A stretch of DNA of 64,000 nucleotides from a virus (lineage: Duplodnaviria; Caudoviricetes). Below the pieces are notes generated by a model. It ran no database searches, was not told the origin of the DNA, and worked only from the letters and a program-made list of their open reading frames with translations. Each line of letters begins with the position of its first letter. Positions within the stretch are counted from its first letter, which is position 1. Positions 5,191 through 42,608 of this stretch are shown in pieces. The stretch covers positions 1 to 64,000 of IMG/VR virus record IMGVR_UViG_3300037851_000284, one strand, 5' to 3'. A program made the translations under genes and the position numbers.

Positions 5191-5571
5191 ATGATCAGAT
5201 TCTCTGAGTTCGCAAGAAATCTCAGTACCTTCCGTACTAAGGAAGTAAAAGATCCGCACTTTCGTTTCCATAGGAACGGAAATGGCTTAATGCAGTGTAC
5301 CTTCAGGGCCAATCTCCTTTTAAGAACAAAAAAGGGGATACAGCCACTCGGAAACGGATTGATATGTTTTGCTGATGAATCAGCATCATCTCAATCCGTT
5401 GAAGGAGAACTAATCCGATCAGGAAGATGGAAGTCATTTCAAGTCGGAAAATTATGGGCATTCTTGAACGGAAAAACTATCCTTCTTGCAAAAGTAGATC
5501 CTACAGGAGCTACCAATTTGGCAAGTGGATTCATATCTGAAGAAGGAGAATTCCTTATAGATAAGGAGTAG
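5191..5571 (+). CDS. hypothetical protein
   Basis: RBS aggag. Confidence 0.6.
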   Translation: MIRFSEFARNLSTFRTKEVKDPHFRFHRNGNGLMQCTFRANLLLRTKKGIQPLGNGLICFADESASSQSVEGELIRSGRWKSFQVGKLWAFLNGKTILLAKVDPTGATNLASGFISEEGEFLIDKE

Positions 5572-5680
5572 CGTGATAGTCAATTTCCTCAAGATACTAG
5601 GCATTATTGCTATTGCCTTTTTGCTAGGCACCCTTATTGGAATACCTATAGGACTTGCAGGTATCTAGAAAGAAGGATCT

Positions 5681-6322
5681 ATGATATATACCGGCATTGG
5701 ATCTAGAACGACACCACCGGTTATATTAGACCTAATGCTAGAAATAGGACGCTATTTCGGGAAGCACGGTGTTACTCTACGCTCAGGAGGGGCCCCTGGA
5801 GCAGACATTGCTTTTGAACAAGGTTGTGATTCTGCTGGAGGACCAAAGCAAATCTTTTTCCCCACGAAAATCTGGATGGGAAAAGATTCGTCTTTGAGAA
5901 CAGGAACCTATCATCTAATGGGGCCTGATATCAATTTGCAGGAAGCATCTATATGGGCCCAAAGAATTTGGACATATAGAAACCTGCAGTATGAATGGAA
6001 TCGTTTGAAACCATTCACAAAGCTATTAATGATAAGAAACAGTCTGCAGATTCTAGGACCACAGATGGTCTCTCCAACAAAACTAATCATATGCTGGACT
6101 ACCAATGGCGAATTAACAGGAGGCACTGGACAGACTATGATGATGGCAGAACATATCAATCATTCGAAAGAATACGATTATGTTATTCCCATTATCAACC
6201 TGCAAATACAGTCACACAGAGACGCTATAAGAAATTTATTGTCCGGAAACGATCCAAACTCATTCATTGACACTGTTCAAAACATACTGCAAAAACGGTT
6301 GAAAAAGAGACTACACAAATAG
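5681..6322 (+). CDS. SLOG/DprA-like nucleotide-binding protein
   Basis: YTGIGSR, LRSGGAPGADIAFE, GGTGQT motifs. Confidence 0.75.
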   Translation: MIYTGIGSRTTPPVILDLMLEIGRYFGKHGVTLRSGGAPGADIAFEQGCDSAGGPKQIFFPTKIWMGKDSSLRTGTYHLMGPDINLQEASIWAQRIWTYRNLQYEWNRLKPFTKLLMIRNSLQILGPQMVSPTKLIICWTTNGELTGGTGQTMMMAEHINHSKEYDYVIPIINLQIQSHRDAIRNLLSGNDPNSFIDTVQNILQKRLKKRLHK

Positions 6323-13243: not shown

Positions 13244-13315
13244 TCACAGAGTAGCGCCCTTAAATGGGCGTTAATGTGGCAATCTGGTTACAAGCCCAGA
13301 TAATAGGAGGCACTG

Positions 13316-20980: not shown

Positions 20981-21330
20981 GGGGCTGAACTGATTCGACT
21001 AGTGTAAAACGTATTAACCATATACGGTGGTTGGTAGGATGGCCACCATAAAATCCTACAATTTACAGACGACGATGCAGAATATGCATATCAGTTAGCT
21101 GCCTAATTGAAGGCAGCGAAAGAAATAATAAGTCTGTGATTATTATTTCTACAAACACACAGATAGGGTAACCGAACGGATATTAGAGAAGGGGACCAAA
21201 GAGACGTATATCCAACATCTTGTTATCCAAACTGTGAGAGACAAGATGAAATATTCACAGTTTAACGTATATAAGTAAAGTTAATACATGTAGCATCTAG
21301 GACGGGAGCTCAACCTCCCCAGCTCCACCA
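20981..21330 (+). ncRNA. ssrA: tmRNA; tag (A)DDDAEYAYQLAA at 21068-21106
   Basis: GGGGCTGA 5' end, cagctccACCA 3' end with G3-U pair, pk1-like stems, tag ending LAA-stop. Confidence 0.93.
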
Positions 21331-21335
21331 ACTTA

Positions 21336-21369
21336 TAAAGGGTGGAATTAAAACTTCACCCTTTTATTT
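21336..21369 (+). terminator. terminator after tmRNA
   Basis: aaagggtgg/ttcaccctttt stem plus T tract. Confidence 0.7.
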
Positions 21370-21564
21370 AATTGGCGGGAAATGCTTCACTCTTTGGAAA
21401 TTATAGGGCGTGTAAAACGAGTAAGAATGTTGACATCCCCAATCGGATTGTATCTGATTATGGGTTGCAACTTTTTTCGTGAACAAGAACACGCCTTTAC
21501 ATTGCAGCAATTATCAGCCATTTAGCAGACGTTGGCCGAAATAAATTTTTCTCTTGGGGGTTAT

Positions 21565-38359: not shown

Positions 38360-38911
38360 ATGGAATTCATACCATTTCCAAAAATACACAGGATATCCAG
38401 ACCTTGTGTTGTTACAGAAAAGATTGATGGCACAAATGCATGTATATGTATTACCAAAGAAGGAGAATTCCTAACTGGTTCACGTACCAAATGGATAACT
38501 CCTTCCGATGATAATCATGGGTTCTCAAAGTGGGCCCATGAGAACAAAGACGAACTGTTAAAACTCGGTATTGGCTGTCATCATGGAGAATGGTGGGGAC
38601 AGGAGATTCAAAGAACATATGGATTAAAGGAAAAGAGGTTTTCTCTATTTAATACATCTAAATGGCTAGACCCACTTGTAAGACCAAAATGTTGTCATAT
38701 TGTACCAGTATTATATGAGGGCTTATTTGACACTGTGGAAATAAACAAATGTCTGGATCGCCTTGCTCAAACAGGAAGCATAGCAGCACCAAACTTTATG
38801 AAACCAGAAGGAATAGTTATATTTCATGTAGCTGGAAATTTTTGCCTAAAAAAGACTTTAAACAATGATGGATTACCAAAGAGTTTGGTAAAGGAGGAAC
38901 AGCATGCCTAG
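38360..38911 (+). CDS. RNA ligase (Rnl2-like nucleotidyltransferase domain)
   Basis: FPKI, TEKIDGTN, HGEWWG, FSLFN, PEGIV, KK. Confidence 0.88.
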   Translation: MEFIPFPKIHRISRPCVVTEKIDGTNACICITKEGEFLTGSRTKWITPSDDNHGFSKWAHENKDELLKLGIGCHHGEWWGQEIQRTYGLKEKRFSLFNTSKWLDPLVRPKCCHIVPVLYEGLFDTVEINKCLDRLAQTGSIAAPNFMKPEGIVIFHVAGNFCLKKTLNNDGLPKSLVKEEQHA

Positions 38912-38976: not shown

Positions 38977-39282
38977 ATGAAGAACCTCCGGAAGAGGAAG
39001 ATGATGATAACATGGGACAAACATCCTGATATAGTTACTAGGAAAAGAACATCTAAACTGGGTATTTGCAATAGATGCGACTCCTTCTCTTCCTTATTTA
39101 CTTCGGGTGATGGTTATTATCTCTGTAGAGAATGTTACAGAGATATAATTGGTAGCATATTTGATACAGAACTAAATGAAAAAATAAATAAGATGAGGAA
39201 AGAAAGAGAATTAAACGCAAGAGAGTTTGATTTTATTAACAGGAGAAAAAGGGGTCTCTGTCCATTAGTACTGAGATGGTAA
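38977..39282 (+). CDS. hypothetical Zn-finger-like protein
   Basis: CNRC...CREC. Confidence 0.5.
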   Translation: MKNLRKRKMMITWDKHPDIVTRKRTSKLGICNRCDSFSSLFTSGDGYYLCRECYRDIIGSIFDTELNEKINKMRKERELNAREFDFINRRKRGLCPLVLRW

Positions 39283-39442
39283 TTCCTTCTTCCTTTTTGA
39301 ATTATTCGGATGATATTTTGTTTCGTTAGGGAACATGAACAAAGTATCAAGATAAGCTGGAGTTTCAACGTTAGTGTTGTACCTGTTCATTACTGGTTTC
39401 TAGTGGTAAGTAACTAAGGGGTAAACACGATATTATCCAATA

Positions 39443-39561
39443 GCGGGTGTAGTACAGAGTTACTTCTGGTTTAATGCGAAAGCAGAGTGGGTCGAATCCC
39501 ACAACCCTATAGAAATATAGGTCTTGTCTCTGTATAATTTGTCTCTGTATAATTTGCCCGC
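39443..39561 (+). ncRNA. Y-RNA-like 1 with tRNA-like domain
   Basis: gcgggTGTAG, gtacagag/ctctgtat, TTACTTC, T-arm gtgg-gtcgaat-ccac, cccgc. Confidence 0.7.
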
Positions 39562-39571
39562 AAAAATTTAA

Positions 39572-39652
39572 AAGAAACTGGGTGTAGATAGCAGATACTT
39601 CACTTTTATTGAAAAAAGCAGAAACCCTGCTATTGATTTAATCAGTTTCTTT
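39572..39652 (+). ncRNA. Y-RNA-like 2
   Basis: gggTGTAG, atagcag/ctgctat, ATACTTC. Confidence 0.65.
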
Positions 39653-39664
39653 TCAGTATAAACC

Positions 39665-39736
39665 TGTGGGTGTAGAAAACTGTTACTTCGACTGCTAATC
39701 GACGCCCGAAAGGGATATCAGTTTTCGCTTTTCCCA
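39665..39736 (+). ncRNA. Y-RNA-like 3
   Basis: gtgggTGTAG, gaaaactg/cagttttc, TTACTTC, gcttttcccac, then U tract. Confidence 0.7.
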
Positions 39737-39758
39737 CTTTTATTTTCTTGGAGGTAAT

Positions 39759-40133
39759 ATGCCTAGAATAAAGGTTGCGTTGTTAATATATAAACCGTTA
39801 TCAGACAATCAAGACCAACAAGATAAAATCCTTCTGGTAGAAAGACCAGATGGAAGTATGTCTATTCCAACAGTACAAGTTGGAGACTATCAAGGGATTA
39901 AGGAATGTATTGACCATTTAGTGAACCCTCACATGGAAATAGAAGAGACGGAACCAATTGGTATCTATGAAGATATGGATATAGAAATACATGATATCTA
40001 CATAGTATACCTGTGCGAAGTTAAAATAAAGGCAACAATCCCTTGTAATTATAAATGGATAACAGGAAAAAGCGTTAGCTTCCAATATAGACATATAGAC
40101 CAAAATTCAAGAGAAATTATTGAGATGTTATAA
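39759..40133 (+). CDS. Nudix-fold protein with degenerate Nudix box
   Basis: ILLVERPDGSMSIP...IGIYE...YLCEV; GX5EX7REUXEE absent. Confidence 0.5.
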   Translation: MPRIKVALLIYKPLSDNQDQQDKILLVERPDGSMSIPTVQVGDYQGIKECIDHLVNPHMEIEETEPIGIYEDMDIEIHDIYIVYLCEVKIKATIPCNYKWITGKSVSFQYRHIDQNSREIIEML

Positions 40134-40140
40134 AATTTTA

Positions 40141-40198
40141 AAGGGTGTAAACAAGAGATACTTCTACCATAATGAAACTCTCTTGCTGCTTTTCCCTT
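40141..40198 (+). ncRNA. Y-RNA-like 4
   Basis: aagggTGTAA, caagag/ctcttg, ATACTTC, gcttttccctt. Confidence 0.65.
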
Positions 40199-40213
40199 TA
40201 TTAACATTACATC

Positions 40214-40277
40214 GGACGGGTGTAGTCGGGAGATACTTCTATAACGGTGAAAAAAACTCCCAACGCTTTACTCGTCC
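40214..40277 (+). ncRNA. Y-RNA-like 5
   Basis: ggacgggTGTAG, gggag/ctccc, ATACTTC, gctttactcgtcc. Confidence 0.7.
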
Positions 40278-40297
40278 ATTTTTAAAAAGGAGAACGT

Positions 40298-41776
40298 ATG
40301 AAAGCGAATACAAGTGCTGAAGGACAGGGACTATCCAAGATAACCGACGGAGTAGTTCTAAATAAAGAAGGAGCAGTGGCTTACGCTCTGAAGGATAAAG
40401 AGAAACTAGTCACAGGTATTTTAACGAACTTCTTTAAAGAGCCTAAATTTTATGGAGATAATACCCCTGAGATAATCGAGACTGCCCGTAAGATTATACA
40501 GGAAGATCCAGAGTTCGTGGCAAAGGCAGCGTGCTTTGCACGTAACAAGTTTCATATGAGATCCATCTCTCATGCTCTTTCCGCCGAAGTAGCAAGAGGG
40601 GCAAAGGGGAATAAAATTGTCCGCAAGATGATCAGAAAAGTCATTGAGCGGGCCGATGATATGACTAACATTATATCATATCATATAAACACATGGGGAA
40701 AGCGTGGGAAAGAAAATCCTATTCCAAGAGGACTTCGAAGAGGTCTAGCCGATGTGTTTCCTCGGTTTGACGAGTATGCACTGGCAAAATACAAAGGAGA
40801 GAGCAAAACCGTCAAACTGCGTGACGTTCTCAAAATGATTCATCCCACTCCAAAGAATAAGGAGCAGGGTGAAATGTGGAAGCGTCTTATTGAGGGAACG
40901 CTGGCTACTCCTGAGACCAGAGAGACAATACTCTCTGATAAAGGACAGTCAAAGGAAGTATGGGAAAGTATCCTAGATGGTAAAGCGGGATACATGATGA
41001 TACTCCGCAACTTGAAAAATATACTTGAGCATGGTATAGATGATACTCATCTAGATAAAGTGTGCTCTCTATTGAAGGATCCTGATGAAGTTCGTTCCTC
41101 AAAACAACTTCCGTTCAGATTCCTTTCCGCATACAGAATGGTTCAAGATATGGGCAATCCGAGAGGAGCAAAGGTATTAGAAACTCTGGAAGATGCTCTT
41201 CTAACATCGACCGAGAACGTACAAAAGCTAAAAGGAATAACTGCTGTACTGACAGACGAATCAGGATCAATGACTCGTCTATTATCAAAAAACTCGTTAG
41301 TTAGGTACAGAGATGTTGGTAATTTGTTGGCAGCCATTTCACACAGAATATGTGATAGTTCTGTTATTGTCCCCTTTGGCACAGATGCTGTAGTATTAAC
41401 ACTTTCTCCTAGATCAAGCGTATTTGATAACATGAAGAGAATGAATAGTTCTGGTGTTGGCCACTCAACCAATGTACACATAGCTCTAGGAAAAGCATTC
41501 TCTGTAAATGTAAAAATAGACAGGATAATCCTGTTCTCAGATATGCAGGCTTATGGATGCTCAGATGGAATAAATTCCATGGTTCAGAACTACAGACGTG
41601 ATAAGAATTCCAACTTATGGGTACATTCTGTAGACCTAGCGGGATATGGAACCACCCAGTTAACGGATAAAGTTAATCTGATAGCAGGATGGTCAGAGAA
41701 GATTCTAGACTACATAGGTCTCGTCGAGAACAGAGGGTTAAGTCTTGTAGAAGATATTGAAAACTACAAGCTGTAA
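40298..41776 (+). CDS. Ro60-like TROVE-domain RNA-binding protein with vWA domain
   Basis: NKEG..AY, EPKFY, KYKG, TPETRE, MMILRNL, QLPFRFLSAY, DESGSM, FSDMQ, GWSEK. Confidence 0.92.
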   Translation: MKANTSAEGQGLSKITDGVVLNKEGAVAYALKDKEKLVTGILTNFFKEPKFYGDNTPEIIETARKIIQEDPEFVAKAACFARNKFHMRSISHALSAEVARGAKGNKIVRKMIRKVIERADDMTNIISYHINTWGKRGKENPIPRGLRRGLADVFPRFDEYALAKYKGESKTVKLRDVLKMIHPTPKNKEQGEMWKRLIEGTLATPETRETILSDKGQSKEVWESILDGKAGYMMILRNLKNILEHGIDDTHLDKVCSLLKDPDEVRSSKQLPFRFLSAYRMVQDMGNPRGAKVLETLEDALLTSTENVQKLKGITAVLTDESGSMTRLLSKNSLVRYRDVGNLLAAISHRICDSSVIVPFGTDAVVLTLSPRSSVFDNMKRMNSSGVGHSTNVHIALGKAFSVNVKIDRIILFSDMQAYGCSDGINSMVQNYRRDKNSNLWVHSVDLAGYGTTQLTDKVNLIAGWSEKILDYIGLVENRGLSLVEDIENYKL

Positions 41777-41787
41777 CCCTCTGATAA

Positions 41788-41820
41788 TACGGGGGATACA
41801 CGACAAAAGTATCCCTCGTA
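41788..41820 (+). terminator. hairpin after Ro60
   Basis: tacgggggatac/gtatccctcgta; weak T tract. Confidence 0.5.
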
Positions 41821-42188
41821 TGTTCTATACTAATGGGATAAGTTAAGTGAAAAGCAAATATTCTAGAGATATAGGAAAATAGATTAGAATAGGCCCCCCT
41901 TTTGCATCTTTTCGGGGCTACTGGACATTTCTAAAAGATACTGGGTTGTTGACTACAACACAGTTAGTATGACTGTATTATACTTGGTAAGTGGGATCAA
42001 ACAACCTGTAGTCCTGTTTATTCCATGCTACCATCTTGATTTATCCCCTTAATTTTATCTTTTGGAGTAACTTTGGATAATACAAGTTTTATTGAACAAA
42101 GGAAAGGAGTATTTTACAAAGTCGCGTCGCTGTAACTGTGACTAGTGCAGACTTCAAAACTCTTTTACAACGTTAGTTAAAAGTAAAA

Positions 42189-42608
42189 ATGACAAGTGTA
42201 CATTTAAGAGACAAAAACAATCTAATAACAATAGCAGTCGCCGGAAAAGTTCCAATAAGAGGAAGAACCTCCTCTAACCAATATTTTCATACCCCATTAG
42301 AATTATTACTGTGTTCCCTTGGTCTCTGTGTTGGAGGGATCATAAATAATTTTTGTCGCGTGTATGATATTAATCCCCTTATATTTGAGGATATTACCAT
42401 ATCTTTCGATGGATTTATATTTATTGTATCTCTAACTAGACCTTCTGATTTCAAGCTAGAGTTTGAAAGGTTGCTAGAGATTTACATAAAAGATTGTTCA
42501 ATAGCGAGAGAACTAAAAAAAGATTTATCCATAAAATGGGGCGTAAACAGCGCACCAGTGGAGAAATTGATAGCAAGAAAAGAAAAGCCTTGCTGTGGAG
42601 GAAACTAA
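42189..42608 (+). CDS. OsmC-like protein
   Basis: PLELLLCSLGLC...CSIAREL. Confidence 0.65.
   Translation: MTSVHLRDKNNLITIAVAGKVPIRGRTSSNQYFHTPLELLLCSLGLCVGGIINNFCRVYDINPLIFEDITISFDGFIFIVSLTRPSDFKLEFERLLEIYIKDCSIARELKKDLSIKWGVNSAPVEKLIARKEKPCCGGN

What the first reader, a model, noticed from the sequence alone, without database searches (positions are those of the whole stretch)
39443..41776. Phage Ro60 preceded by five Y-RNA-like genes sharing one architecture
Seen: five units (39443, 39572, 39665, 40141, 40214) share the order outer stem-GGG, TGTA(G/A), 5-8 bp inner stem, (A/T)TACTTC, variable domain, inner stem', then outer stem'. The bulge is GCTTT-like in units 3-5. Stems differ in sequence but keep pairing. 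A TROVE gene follows at once. Established: Ro60 binds Y RNAs encoded near it via a bulged terminal stem, and some phages carry Ro/Y. Inference: an expanded Y RNA repertoire with interchangeable effector domains. The motif differs from the GNCGAAG consensus I recall for YrlA.
Basis: partly seen in the sequence, partly recalled or inferred. Interest (0 to 1): 0.75.

Follow-up and report, generated by a model that had tools for sequence, protein, structure and literature searches.

The report
Phage Ro60 gene with five Y-RNAs
A 219-kb freshwater phage encodes the ring-shaped RNA-binding protein Ro60 and, just upstream, five small structured RNAs with one conserved "handle" and different heads; they are divergent, unannotated members of the known Y-RNA (YrlA-like) class, and such arrays proved to be usual beside Ro60 genes in phages and Firmicutes.

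Summary
Observation confirmed. Five units (39443-39561, 39570-39653, 39666-39737, 40140-40199, 40214-40277, + strand) share one layout. It runs outer stem, GGG-UGUA(G/A), 8-bp inner stem, (A/U)UACUUC, variable head, inner stem', YGNUUU(N), CCC-like, outer stem'. The pattern occurs nowhere else in the 219-kb genome.

A Ro60 gene (40298-41776; TROVE plus a vWA domain with full MIDAS) starts 20 nt after unit 5.

Six related phage contigs carry 3-9 such units upstream of their Ro60 gene. All 18 base pairs show compensatory changes. Some relatives' units hold the permuted tRNA-like T/acceptor/D core that defines YrlA.

A broader covariance model hit 280 places in 90 Ro60 loci (279 on the Ro60 strand), and 115 places in 43 genome-collection loci, mostly Clostridia and Bacillus. 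So arrays are usual and five is ordinary.

GGUGUAG sits where YrlA has GNCGAAG, and other phages show intermediates. Rfam's YrlA model finds nothing in this genome, and none of the five units has a full tRNA-like core.

Most likely they are Ro60-bound adaptor or gate RNAs of an RNA ligase/Ro60 repair and quality-control module. Expression and binding are untested.

This scan has noted similar arrays on other DNA.

The parts
39443..39561 (+). Y-like RNA unit 1. Handle is GCGGG-UGUAG. Head has a V hairpin, a T-arm relic (5-bp stem, 6-nt UCGAAU loop) and an acceptor-like hairpin, but no D arm. The 3' strand (TCTCTGTATAATTTG) is duplicated in tandem.
   Evidence: R1, E 2.6e-6; R2, E 1.7e-8; duplication confirmed in independent contigs
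39570..39653 (+). Y-like RNA unit 2. 11-bp outer stem; handle GGG-UGUAG / UGAUUUAAUC; A/U-rich 25-nt head.
   Evidence: (R1, E 3.9e-14)
39666..39737 (+). Y-like RNA unit 3. Handle GUGGG-UGUAG / CGCUUUUCCCAC. The head has two small hairpins, one with a GAAA loop; it is of the same type as L010 1666 and L009 2339.
   Evidence: (R1, E 2e-14)
39759..40133 (+). 124-aa ORF embedded in the array, with its own RBS. No Pfam hit. Weak similarity (E 0.003) to the NUDIX protein at the same place in L006.
40140..40199 (+). Y-like RNA unit 4 (minimal, 60 nt). Handle AAAGGG-UGUAA / UGCUUUUCCCUUU. The head is a 20-nt loop that begins AUACUUC.
   Evidence: R1, E 1.8e-13; R2, E 5e-13
40214..40277 (+). Y-like RNA unit 5 (minimal, 64 nt). 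Handle GGACGGG-UGUAG / CGCUUUACUCGUCC. It ends 20 nt before the Ro60 start codon.
   Evidence: (R1, E 1.7e-12)
40298..41776 (+). Ro60 orthologue (492 aa): TROVE/HEAT ring plus vWA domain, with MIDAS residues D320, S322, S324, T391 and D415.
   Evidence: Pfam TROVE 1.5e-34 and vWA_Ro60 1.7e-4, below cut-off; PHROG 850 RNA-binding protein 8e-43; Thermus phage phiLo Ro60 (9KOP/9L5Y) E 5.7e-32 over residues 23-476; invariant columns
38360..38911 (+). Minimal RNA ligase (183 aa, KxDG motif) in the position where relatives have a 366-394-aa RNA ligase. It belongs to the same conserved gene block: ligase, small ORF, Y array, Ro60.
   Evidence: Pfam RNA_ligase 6.9e-16; PHROG 548, 1.6e-27; synteny; 24% identity to the C-terminal half of the L009 ligase

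Best explanation
The five units are genes for small noncoding Y RNAs of the bacterial/phage YrlA-like class, partners of the phage's own Ro60.

Shown:
- They share a covarying two-stem scaffold.
- The internal loop and the adjoining single strand are sequence-constrained: 5' GGG-UGUA(G), 3' YGNUUU(N)-CCC, followed by WUACUUC.
- This scaffold is tied to Ro60 genes, on the same strand, across phages and Firmicutes.
- The handle variant is uniform within a locus but differs between loci.

Inferred:
- The handle is the Ro60 docking site, the counterpart of GNCGAAG in YrlA and GGUCCGA in animal Y RNAs.
- The units are cut out of one long transcript. Spacers are only 6-21 nt, and the array is interleaved with an ORF and abuts the Ro60 ribosome-binding site.
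- Each RNA places its variable head next to the Ro60 ring, either to tether a partner (as Yrn1 and phiLo Yrl1/2 do with PNPase) or simply to gate the Ro60 cavity.
- Together with the upstream RNA ligase and the 20-tRNA/tmRNA island, the block would work as an RNA repair, quality-control or decay-control module during infection.
- In this phage the heads are reduced to short hairpins or A/U-rich loops, so gating or tethering of a single-strand-binding nuclease is more likely than tRNA mimicry.
For: - Motif statistics and uniqueness in the genome.
- Folding z-scores.
- Covariation in 11 hand-picked units: 86% of cells paired against 46-53% with partners slid; 15 of 18 pairs have compensatory changes.
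- Covariation in 38 hits, an alignment fitted to the model: 83% paired against 46-54% with partners slid; all 18 pairs have compensatory changes.
- In the 34 strongest of those units, UG of the loop, UACUUC and UU of the 3' loop are invariant (34/34), while the stems vary freely.
- The window-clade model R1 finds 3-9 units upstream of the Ro60 gene in each of six related contigs. All are on the Ro60 strand.
- Gene order RNA ligase / array / Ro60 / OsmC-like is conserved.
- R1 hits: 78 in 41 of 80 IMG/VR Ro60 loci, 77 on the Ro60 strand.
- Broader model R2 hits: 280 in 90 sources, 279 on the Ro60 strand. In 43 genome-collection loci, 115 hits, 114 on that strand.
- Relatives' units contain a T arm, an acceptor-like hairpin and a D arm in YrlA order.
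- RF02553 gives 37 bits on L010 2360-2477 and 30-42 bits on CcrColossus, where R2 hits overlap. The phiLo paper (PMC12135203), citing Chen 2014, names CcrColossus among phages with Y-RNA-like RNAs.
- The layout matches the published one. Chen 2014 (PMC4201824) places GNCGAAN0-1G near the 5' end and YUAY at nt 22-25. Wang 2018 (bioRxiv 10.1101/312249) places the anticodon-like stem at nt 15-27.
- Canonical GGCGAAG occupies the same columns in L085 and L101. GGUGAAG, GGCGUAG and GGUGCAG are intermediates.
- Handle identity is 0.85 within a locus and 0.68 between loci, while stem identity is 0.45 and 0.40. Outside the window's clade the handle gap is 0.83 against 0.64; no permutation of 500 reaches it.
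- phiLo Ro60, the closest solved relative, binds two upstream Yrl RNAs through the motif-bearing stem-bulge and forms a complex with host PNPase (PMC12135203).
Against: - There is no expression or binding data for this phage.
- Rfam YrlA finds nothing in this genome, even at E<=1.
- The literal GNCGAAG/CGAA motif is absent.
- None of the five units has the full tRNA-like domain that Chen 2014 reported for at least one Y RNA per species.
- Pair counts on A2 and the column comparisons on A4 come from alignments fitted to the model, and paralogues within a locus are related, so the within-locus handle uniformity is suggestive only.
- Of eight basic residues that contact RNA in phiLo Ro60, only three align to K/R here, though the alignment is at about 25-30% identity (PMC12135203).
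Confidence: 0.85

Rival explanations
1. The units act in cis only. They would be structured elements of a polycistronic mRNA: processing or stabiliser hairpins, or Ro60-binding operators that autoregulate translation of Ro60 and the embedded ORF. They would not be released as stable trans-acting RNAs.
For: Spacers are only 6-21 nt. Unit 3 ends 21 nt before the 124-aa ORF, unit 4 starts 6 nt after its stop codon, and unit 5 ends 20 nt before the Ro60 start, next to its RBS. No unit-specific promoter or terminator stands out above shuffled expectation for promoters.
Against: In other phages the same scaffold lies downstream of the Ro60 gene (L048/L049, L054, L041, L067, L103 and crAss001 L022). 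In others it is separated from Ro60 by genes or interleaved with tRNA genes (L116). That does not fit a leader operator. YrlA and YrlB of M. smegmatis are also cut from one precursor upstream of rsr, yet are stable Ro60-bound RNAs (PMC4201824). Heads with complete tRNA mimics in the relatives have no obvious cis role.
Confidence: 0.08
2. The conserved handle is read by a protein other than Ro60, for example the neighbouring RNA ligase, a tRNA-processing enzyme or a host factor. Ro60 would merely share the operon.
For: Binding was not tested. The invariant single-stranded UACUUC is not part of the published Ro60 contact motif. An RNA ligase gene accompanies the array in the close relatives.
Against: Across the loci with matches, the one gene always present is the TROVE gene that defined them. 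The neighbours vary; for example, no ligase is annotated in the stretches fetched around the TROVE genes of crAss001 or CcrColossus. The handle sits exactly where the Ro60-protected or contacted nucleotides lie in Yrn1, YrlA, Xenopus Y RNA and phiLo Yrl2 (PMC4201824, PMC12135203).
Confidence: 0.05
3. The units are decaying remnants of tRNA-derived repeats or an inert repeat family without present function.
For: The window's heads look reduced relative to their orthologues: the D arm and further modules are deleted in unit 1, and units 4 and 5 are minimal.
Against: Compensatory changes occur in every helix position, and loop nucleotides are invariant across phages whose Ro60 proteins are only 29-60% identical. 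Strand and position are strictly tied to Ro60. Three metagenome studies hold near-identical sequence.
Confidence: 0.02

Closest known systems
Bacterial and phage YrlA/YrlB Y RNAs with Rsr (Ro60): Salmonella Typhimurium, M. smegmatis, mycobacteriophages, CcrColossus (Chen et al. 2014, PMC4201824; Rfam RF02553; Wang et al. 2018, bioRxiv 10.1101/312249)
   Same: - Encoded next to Ro60 on the same strand, several per locus, probably cut from one precursor.
- The 5' and 3' ends form a long stem.
- A conserved purine-rich 5'-strand motif is followed by a 7-8-bp 'anticodon-like' stem and then YUAY (here UUAC/AUAC).
- Relatives' units carry the permuted T / acceptor-like / D tRNA mimic.
   Different: - The motif is GGUGUAG, not GNCGAAN0-1G (two of the six specified positions differ).
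- UACUUC is invariant.
- None of the window's five units has a complete tRNA-like core.
- RF02553 finds nothing in this genome, and reaches only 37 bits (cut-off 69) on the best unit of the two close relatives scanned at that sensitivity.
Thermus phage phiLo Ro60 with Yrl1 and Yrl2 (PDB 9KOP, 9L5Y; PMC12135203)
   Same: It is the closest solved relative of the protein (E 5.7e-32). The MIDAS residues are at equivalent positions. The Y-like RNAs lie upstream of a phage Ro60 gene and have a stem-bulge-stem handle. It gives experimental precedent for binding and for capture of host PNPase.
   Different: phiLo has two RNAs with a CGAA motif. Here there are five with UGUA(G). Protein identity is only about 25-30%. 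Only 3 of 8 RNA-contact basic residues align to K/R.
Deinococcus radiodurans Yrn1/Yrn2 with Rsr and PNPase (RYPER)
   Same: A modular design of Ro60-binding stem plus effector loop that tethers an exoribonuclease and gates the Ro60 cavity. This is the model for the mechanism proposed here. Yrn1, like unit 1, keeps only a T-arm-like element.
   Different: No sequence similarity was detected. The partner of the window's heads is unknown.

Membership tests
Y RNA (bacterial/phage YrlA-like class) | Encoded within a few kb of a Ro60/TROVE gene, on the same strand | tested here: met
   The five units lie 20-855 nt upstream of the TROVE ORF on the + strand. The same holds for 279 of 280 and 114 of 115 model hits elsewhere.
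Y RNA (bacterial/phage YrlA-like class) | Long stem formed by pairing of the 5' and 3' ends, interrupted by an internal loop or bulge that carries the protein-binding site | tested here: met
   Folds. Covariation: 15 of 18 and 18 of 18 pairs have compensatory changes; 83-86% of cells are paired against about 46-54% in slid controls.
Y RNA (bacterial/phage YrlA-like class) | Conserved 5'-strand motif GNCGAAN0-1G (CGAA) at the Ro60 site | tested here: not met
   The window has GGUGUAG (GGUGUAA in unit 4). The columns are the same ones that hold GGCGAAG in L085 and L101, and intermediates occur in other phages. It is therefore a homologous variant, not the literal motif.
YrlA subfamily (Rfam RF02553) | tRNA-like effector domain: T arm, closed acceptor-like stem and D arm, in that order | tested here: not met
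   None of the five units has it. Unit 1 has a T-arm relic (6-nt loop) plus an acceptor-like hairpin only. Units in L009, L010, L011, L012, L013 and L006 have the full domain.
YrlA subfamily (Rfam RF02553) | Score at or above the Rfam gathering cut-off (69 bits) | tested here: not met
   No match at E<=10 in 39200-42200, and none at E<=1 in the whole genome. Of L009 and L010, scanned at E<=0.1, the best score is 37 bits; CcrColossus reaches 42 bits. None of 20 genome-collection loci passes the cut-off.
Y RNA (any) | Stable discrete transcript physically bound by Ro60 | not testable with these tools
   No RNA run was listed for this DNA. Binding needs EMSA or RIP.
Ro60 / Rsr protein | TROVE (HEAT-repeat ring) domain | tested here: met
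   PF05731, E 1.5e-34. Aligns over residues 23-476 to phiLo Ro60, whose ring structure is solved.
Ro60 / Rsr protein | C-terminal vWA domain with a MIDAS site (DxSxS...T...D) | tested here: met
   D320, S322, S324, T391 and D415 are invariant in 15 relatives. They align with the metal-binding D322, S324, T391 and D416 of phiLo Ro60 (PMC12135203). The Pfam vWA_Ro60 score of 22 bits is below its 27.7 cut-off.

The most novel reading that the evidence does not exclude
The handle may work as a locus-specific address that co-evolves with its own Ro60. A phage Ro60 would then load only the phage's Y RNAs and not those of a host or a competing phage. Each head in the array would redirect a different host RNA-decay, repair or tRNA-processing enzyme. 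The head-less minimal units of this phage would act as pure gates or sponges. Arrays of up to 11 such adaptors, which Rfam did not annotate in any locus scanned and which I found in no paper searched, would make Ro60 a programmable hub that phages use to take over host RNA metabolism or to blunt RNA-targeting defences.
Probability: 0.25. Interest if true: 0.65.

Novelty: new variant of a known kind. Interest (0 to 1): 0.48.

Why it matters
Ro60 and Y RNAs are conserved from bacteria to humans, but their bacterial and viral roles are still poorly defined.

This locus and the census around it add four points:
- Phage and Firmicute Ro60 genes are usually accompanied by arrays of 2-11 Y-like RNAs, not by one or two.
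- The Ro60-site motif is a drifting consensus, roughly GNYGNAG followed by a stem and an invariant WUACUUC. Each locus keeps it uniform.
- The tRNA-like head is dispensable.
- The curated Rfam model reached its cut-off in none of the loci scanned with it.

The two covariance models built here could annotate many more such RNAs. They also give a direct test of cognate against non-cognate Ro60-handle recognition. For this window alone, the result is a solid but fairly ordinary annotation.

Tried and rejected
- **Rfam.** Searches of the window at gathering score and at E<=10 gave no Y-RNA family for the five units. RF02553 on the whole genome gave nothing.
- **Nucleotide similarity.** Comparison of 39300-41800 with 50,697 phage records gave no match.
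- **Single-protein scan.** A scan of viral contigs with the Ro60 protein alone found no relative. An alignment was needed.
- **Expression.** No RNA holder was listed for 39300-41800 or 39430-40300. The only holders are three DNA runs from freshwater metagenomes, one of which may be the source of this DNA.
- **Weak R1 hit at 21333-21399.** It scored E 0.06, lies just after the tmRNA gene, lacks UGUA and UACUUC, and was not found by R2. Rejected as a member.
- **Promoter and terminator scans.** Promoter-like sites did not exceed shuffled expectation, and no terminator-like site follows a unit. I could not decide between one precursor and separate transcripts.
- **Flanking non-coding DNA.** 39283-39442 and 41777-42188 show no conservation with relatives and no model or Rfam hit.
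- **The 124-aa ORF.** It has no Pfam hit, only a weak PHROG hit, and no similarity to the ORFs at the same place in L010 or L012.
- **Search for a long RNA ligase.** Searching the genome with the long ligase of L009 found nothing. The window's 183-aa ligase is a different, minimal form.
- **Mapping phiLo RNA-contact residues.** Inconclusive at this level of identity.
- **Reviews.** PMC10870794 and PMC6542706 are not held.
Full report
**Context.** The window is the first 64 kb of a 219,054-bp IMG/VR virus record that CheckV estimates to be 95% complete. Contigs from freshwater metagenomes hold the same DNA. Upstream of the finding lie 20 tRNA genes, a tmRNA gene and a twister ribozyme. All genes around the finding are on the + strand.

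**Observation.**
- Reading 39000-42200 shows the five units. My coordinates are 39443-39561, 39570-39653, 39666-39737, 40140-40199 and 40214-40277.
- Each unit has an outer stem ending in GGG, then UGUA(G/A), then 7 variable nucleotides, then (A/U)UACUUC, then a variable head. After the head come the complement of the 7 nucleotides, then (C/U)G-N-UUU-N, then CCC-like bases and the outer-stem complement.
- TGTAR-N5-9-WTACTTC occurs 7 times in 64 kb against 0.29 expected, and five of these are the units.
- With the GGG prefix, the five are the only matches in the genome.
- Each unit folds as predicted, with z-scores from -2.2 to -4.6.
- The ORF at 40298-41776 is a Ro60. Pfam TROVE scores 1.5e-34, and a weak vWA_Ro60 hit is present. 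PHROG 850 scores 8e-43. Thermus phage phiLo Ro60 (9KOP/9L5Y) matches at E 5.7e-32 over residues 23-476.
- The MIDAS residues D320, S322, S324, T391 and D415 are invariant among 15 relatives.
- Contigs from two other metagenome studies match 39300-40400 with 0-1 differences. This includes the 15-nt tandem duplication in unit 1.

**Close relatives.**
- The Ro60 protein has homologues at 50-61% identity on large uncultivated-phage contigs.
- I fetched six distinct loci (L006, L009, L010, L011, L012, L013). They share the gene order RNA ligase, small ORF, non-coding stretch of 0.4-2.3 kb, Ro60, OsmC-like gene.
- I aligned 11 short units (A1) and wrote the structure by hand. The result was 86% of cells paired against 46-53% when the partners are slid. 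Fifteen of 18 pairs have compensatory changes, and 0 of 500 shuffles reach the observed covariation.
- The G/A that ends UGUA(G/A) pairs with the C/U before the 3' G and covaries with it.
- The covariance model R1 recovers all five window units (E 2e-14 to 2.6e-6). It finds 5, 5, 9, 3, 4 and 3 units in the six relatives. Every one is on the Ro60 strand and upstream of the gene. There are no further true members in the window's genome.
- On the 38 aligned hits, all 18 pairs show compensatory changes. That alignment is fitted to the model.
- In the 34 strongest of those units, UG of the 5' loop, UACUUC and UU of the 3' loop are invariant. The stems vary freely.

**What the heads are.**
- In every relative, one to four units contain a T arm (GGUUCGAAUCC-like), a closed hairpin and a D arm (UAGCUCAAUGGUAGAGC-like), in that order. 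This is the circularly permuted tRNA mimic that defines YrlA (Chen et al. 2014, PMC4201824; Wang et al. 2018, bioRxiv 10.1101/312249).
- In five of the six relatives, the strong unit nearest the Ro60 gene is of this type.
- Rfam's YrlA model gives 37 bits (cut-off 69) on L010 2360-2477.
- Other head types recur across phages. One adds a module that begins GUGAAAUUCAGAGC, with or without the tRNA core. One adds GAAGCACGACGUGAUGCUCG. Others are short GNRA-type hairpins. The paralogues therefore form orthologous subtypes.
- The window's own array is reduced. Unit 1 is the orthologue of the first unit of L006 but keeps only a V hairpin, a T arm with a 6-nt loop and the acceptor-like hairpin. Unit 3 is a GNRA-hairpin type. 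Units 4 and 5 are minimal, with loops of 17-20 nt.
- RF02553 finds nothing in this genome.

**Relation to the published motif.**
- Chen et al. place GNCGAAN0-1G near the 5' end and YUAY at nt 22-25. Wang et al. place the anticodon-like stem at nt 15-27.
- The layout here is the same: GGUGUAG, a 7-8-nt stem strand, then UUAC.
- I fetched 80 IMG/VR loci that encode Ro60 relatives at 29-57% identity. R1 hit 78 places in 41 of them, 77 on the Ro60 strand.
- In those hits the motif columns read GGCGAAG in L085 and L101, which is the canonical motif. They read GGUGAAG in L072, L075, L076 and L082. They read GGCGUAG in L043, L054 and L066. GGUGCAG, AUUGUAG and AGUGUAG also occur. The motif is always followed by a stem and WUACUUC.
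- The window's motif is therefore a positional homologue within a continuum, not a different element.

**Census.**
- A second model, R2, was built from 95 diverse hits. It found 280 places in 90 sources, 279 on the Ro60 strand. Nearly all lie within about 1.5 kb upstream of the Ro60 gene or, in a minority, downstream of it.
- Seventy-six of the 80 IMG/VR loci have at least one hit. By my count from that table, most have 2-6 and the maxima are 11 (L034), 9 (L010) and 8 (L048/L049 and Caulobacter phage CcrColossus).
- In CcrColossus the R2 hits overlap the sub-threshold RF02553 hits. The phiLo paper (PMC12135203), citing Chen et al. 2014, names CcrColossus among the phages with Y-RNA-like RNAs.
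- In 43 of the 80 loci fetched from the genome collection, mostly Clostridia and Bacillus, R2 found 115 places. Of these, 114 are on the Ro60 strand, again usually 2-6 per locus.
- Rfam passes none of these at its cut-off.
- Arrays are thus the rule, and five units is ordinary.
- I found no paper describing such arrays. phiLo is described with two Yrl RNAs (PMC12135203).
- This scan's notebook already lists similar arrays on other DNA.

**Handle and protein.**
- Within a locus, the handle columns are 85% identical, against 68% between loci. The stem columns are 45% and 40%. Paralogues whose stems have fully diverged therefore still share the variant specific to their locus.
- Outside the window's clade, the handle figures are 83% against 64%, and 0 of 500 label permutations reach this gap.
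- This fits recognition by the cognate Ro60, but relatedness and the fit to the model limit the weight of the test.
- In phiLo, the stem-bulge with CGAA lies on helices alpha8 and alpha10 and contacts R137, K141, K142, R163, R169, R173, R178 and K193 (PMC12135203). Three of these align to K/R in the window's protein, in a segment that remains very basic. I draw no conclusion at this identity.

**Mechanism.**
- Shown: a covarying scaffold with constrained loops, strictly linked to Ro60.
- Inferred from YrlA/Yrn1/Yrl precedent: Ro60 binds the handle. The head either tethers a partner (PNPase in Deinococcus, Salmonella and phiLo) or the RNA gates the Ro60 cavity.
- The 6-21-nt spacers, the embedded 124-aa ORF and the 20-nt gap to the Ro60 start suggest one precursor that is processed. 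YrlA and YrlB of M. smegmatis are made this way (PMC4201824).
- The conserved RNA ligase next to the array parallels the bacterial rsr-yrlBA-rtcBA operon, which I cite from general knowledge. It also fits the RNA-repair reading of TROVE proteins in jumbo phages (PMC7824862).

**Rivals.** The alternatives are a cis-only role, a different binding protein, and inert repeats. They are weighed in their own sections. The variable position of arrays relative to Ro60 and the covariation argue against them.

**Verdict.** These are divergent, unannotated members of the Y-RNA class, with a variant handle and without the tRNA-like core. They sit in a locus type that is common but, as far as I could find, not described as arrays.

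Noticed in passing
window 13245-36343: A large translation-RNA island precedes the locus, all on the + strand: 20 tRNA genes (14170-36343), a tmRNA gene (20981-21330, 74.8 bits) and a type-P5 twister ribozyme (13245-13299, 51.6 bits).
   Followed up: no
window 39529-39558: A 15-nt tandem duplication (TCTCTGTATAATTTG twice) gives unit 1 two alternative 3' strands for its inner stem and loop. The D arm present in orthologous units of relatives is missing here. The duplication is present unchanged in a contig from a second metagenome study.
   Followed up: partly
window 38360-38911: The RNA ligase here is only 183 aa: a nucleotidyltransferase core with KxDG. The syntenic ligases of relatives are 366-394 aa and carry an extra N-terminal PHA02142-type domain. 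Identity to the matching half is 24%.
   Followed up: partly
window 39759-40133: A 124-aa ORF sits inside the RNA array. It is weakly similar (E 0.003) to a bona fide NUDIX protein at the same place in L006, and I could not recognise the Nudix catalytic box by eye. A possible link to RNA 5'-end processing was not explored.
   Followed up: partly
L009 1984-2608, L010 720-1004, L012 1642-1929, L013 2665-2773, L006 1746-1914: Relatives' units share a second conserved head module, GUGAAAUUCAGAGC followed by a hairpin of the CACGU(U)AUAGYCGUG type. It occurs either alone or appended after the tRNA-like core. A third module (GAAGCACGACGUGAUGCUCG) occurs in L006 1482, L010 1137 and L011 2025. Neither matches an Rfam family.
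   Followed up: no
L022 (Bacteroides phage crAss001, MH675552.1) 5447-6165: In crAss001 the units lie downstream of the TROVE gene gp96, in a 900-nt stretch with no annotated gene. R2 scores E 1e-10 at 5447-5530 and also hits 6020-6165. A 144-nt tRNA-model hit lies between them at 5624-5767.
   Followed up: partly
L104 (JALNZI010000003.1) and L105 (CAYVGZ010000001.1): Contigs of 136 kb and 197 kb, filed under a Candidatus Omnitrophota MAG and a Bathyarchaeia MAG, carry a Ro60 gene (60% and 53% identity) preceded by 6 and 3 R2-type units. They are probably mis-binned jumbo-phage contigs.
   Followed up: partly
L116 2214-2945; L130 1123-1807; L152: In some Clostridia and Bacilli MAG loci, genuine tRNA genes are interleaved with, or directly precede, the Y-like units upstream of Ro60. 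This suggests shared transcription and processing with tRNAs.
   Followed up: no
window 41790-41818: A strong hairpin (GGGGGAUAC...GUAUCCCUC) lies 14 nt after the Ro60 stop codon and has no U-tract. The rest of the 410-nt non-coding stretch up to the OsmC-like gene (42189-42608) is not conserved in relatives.
   Followed up: partly
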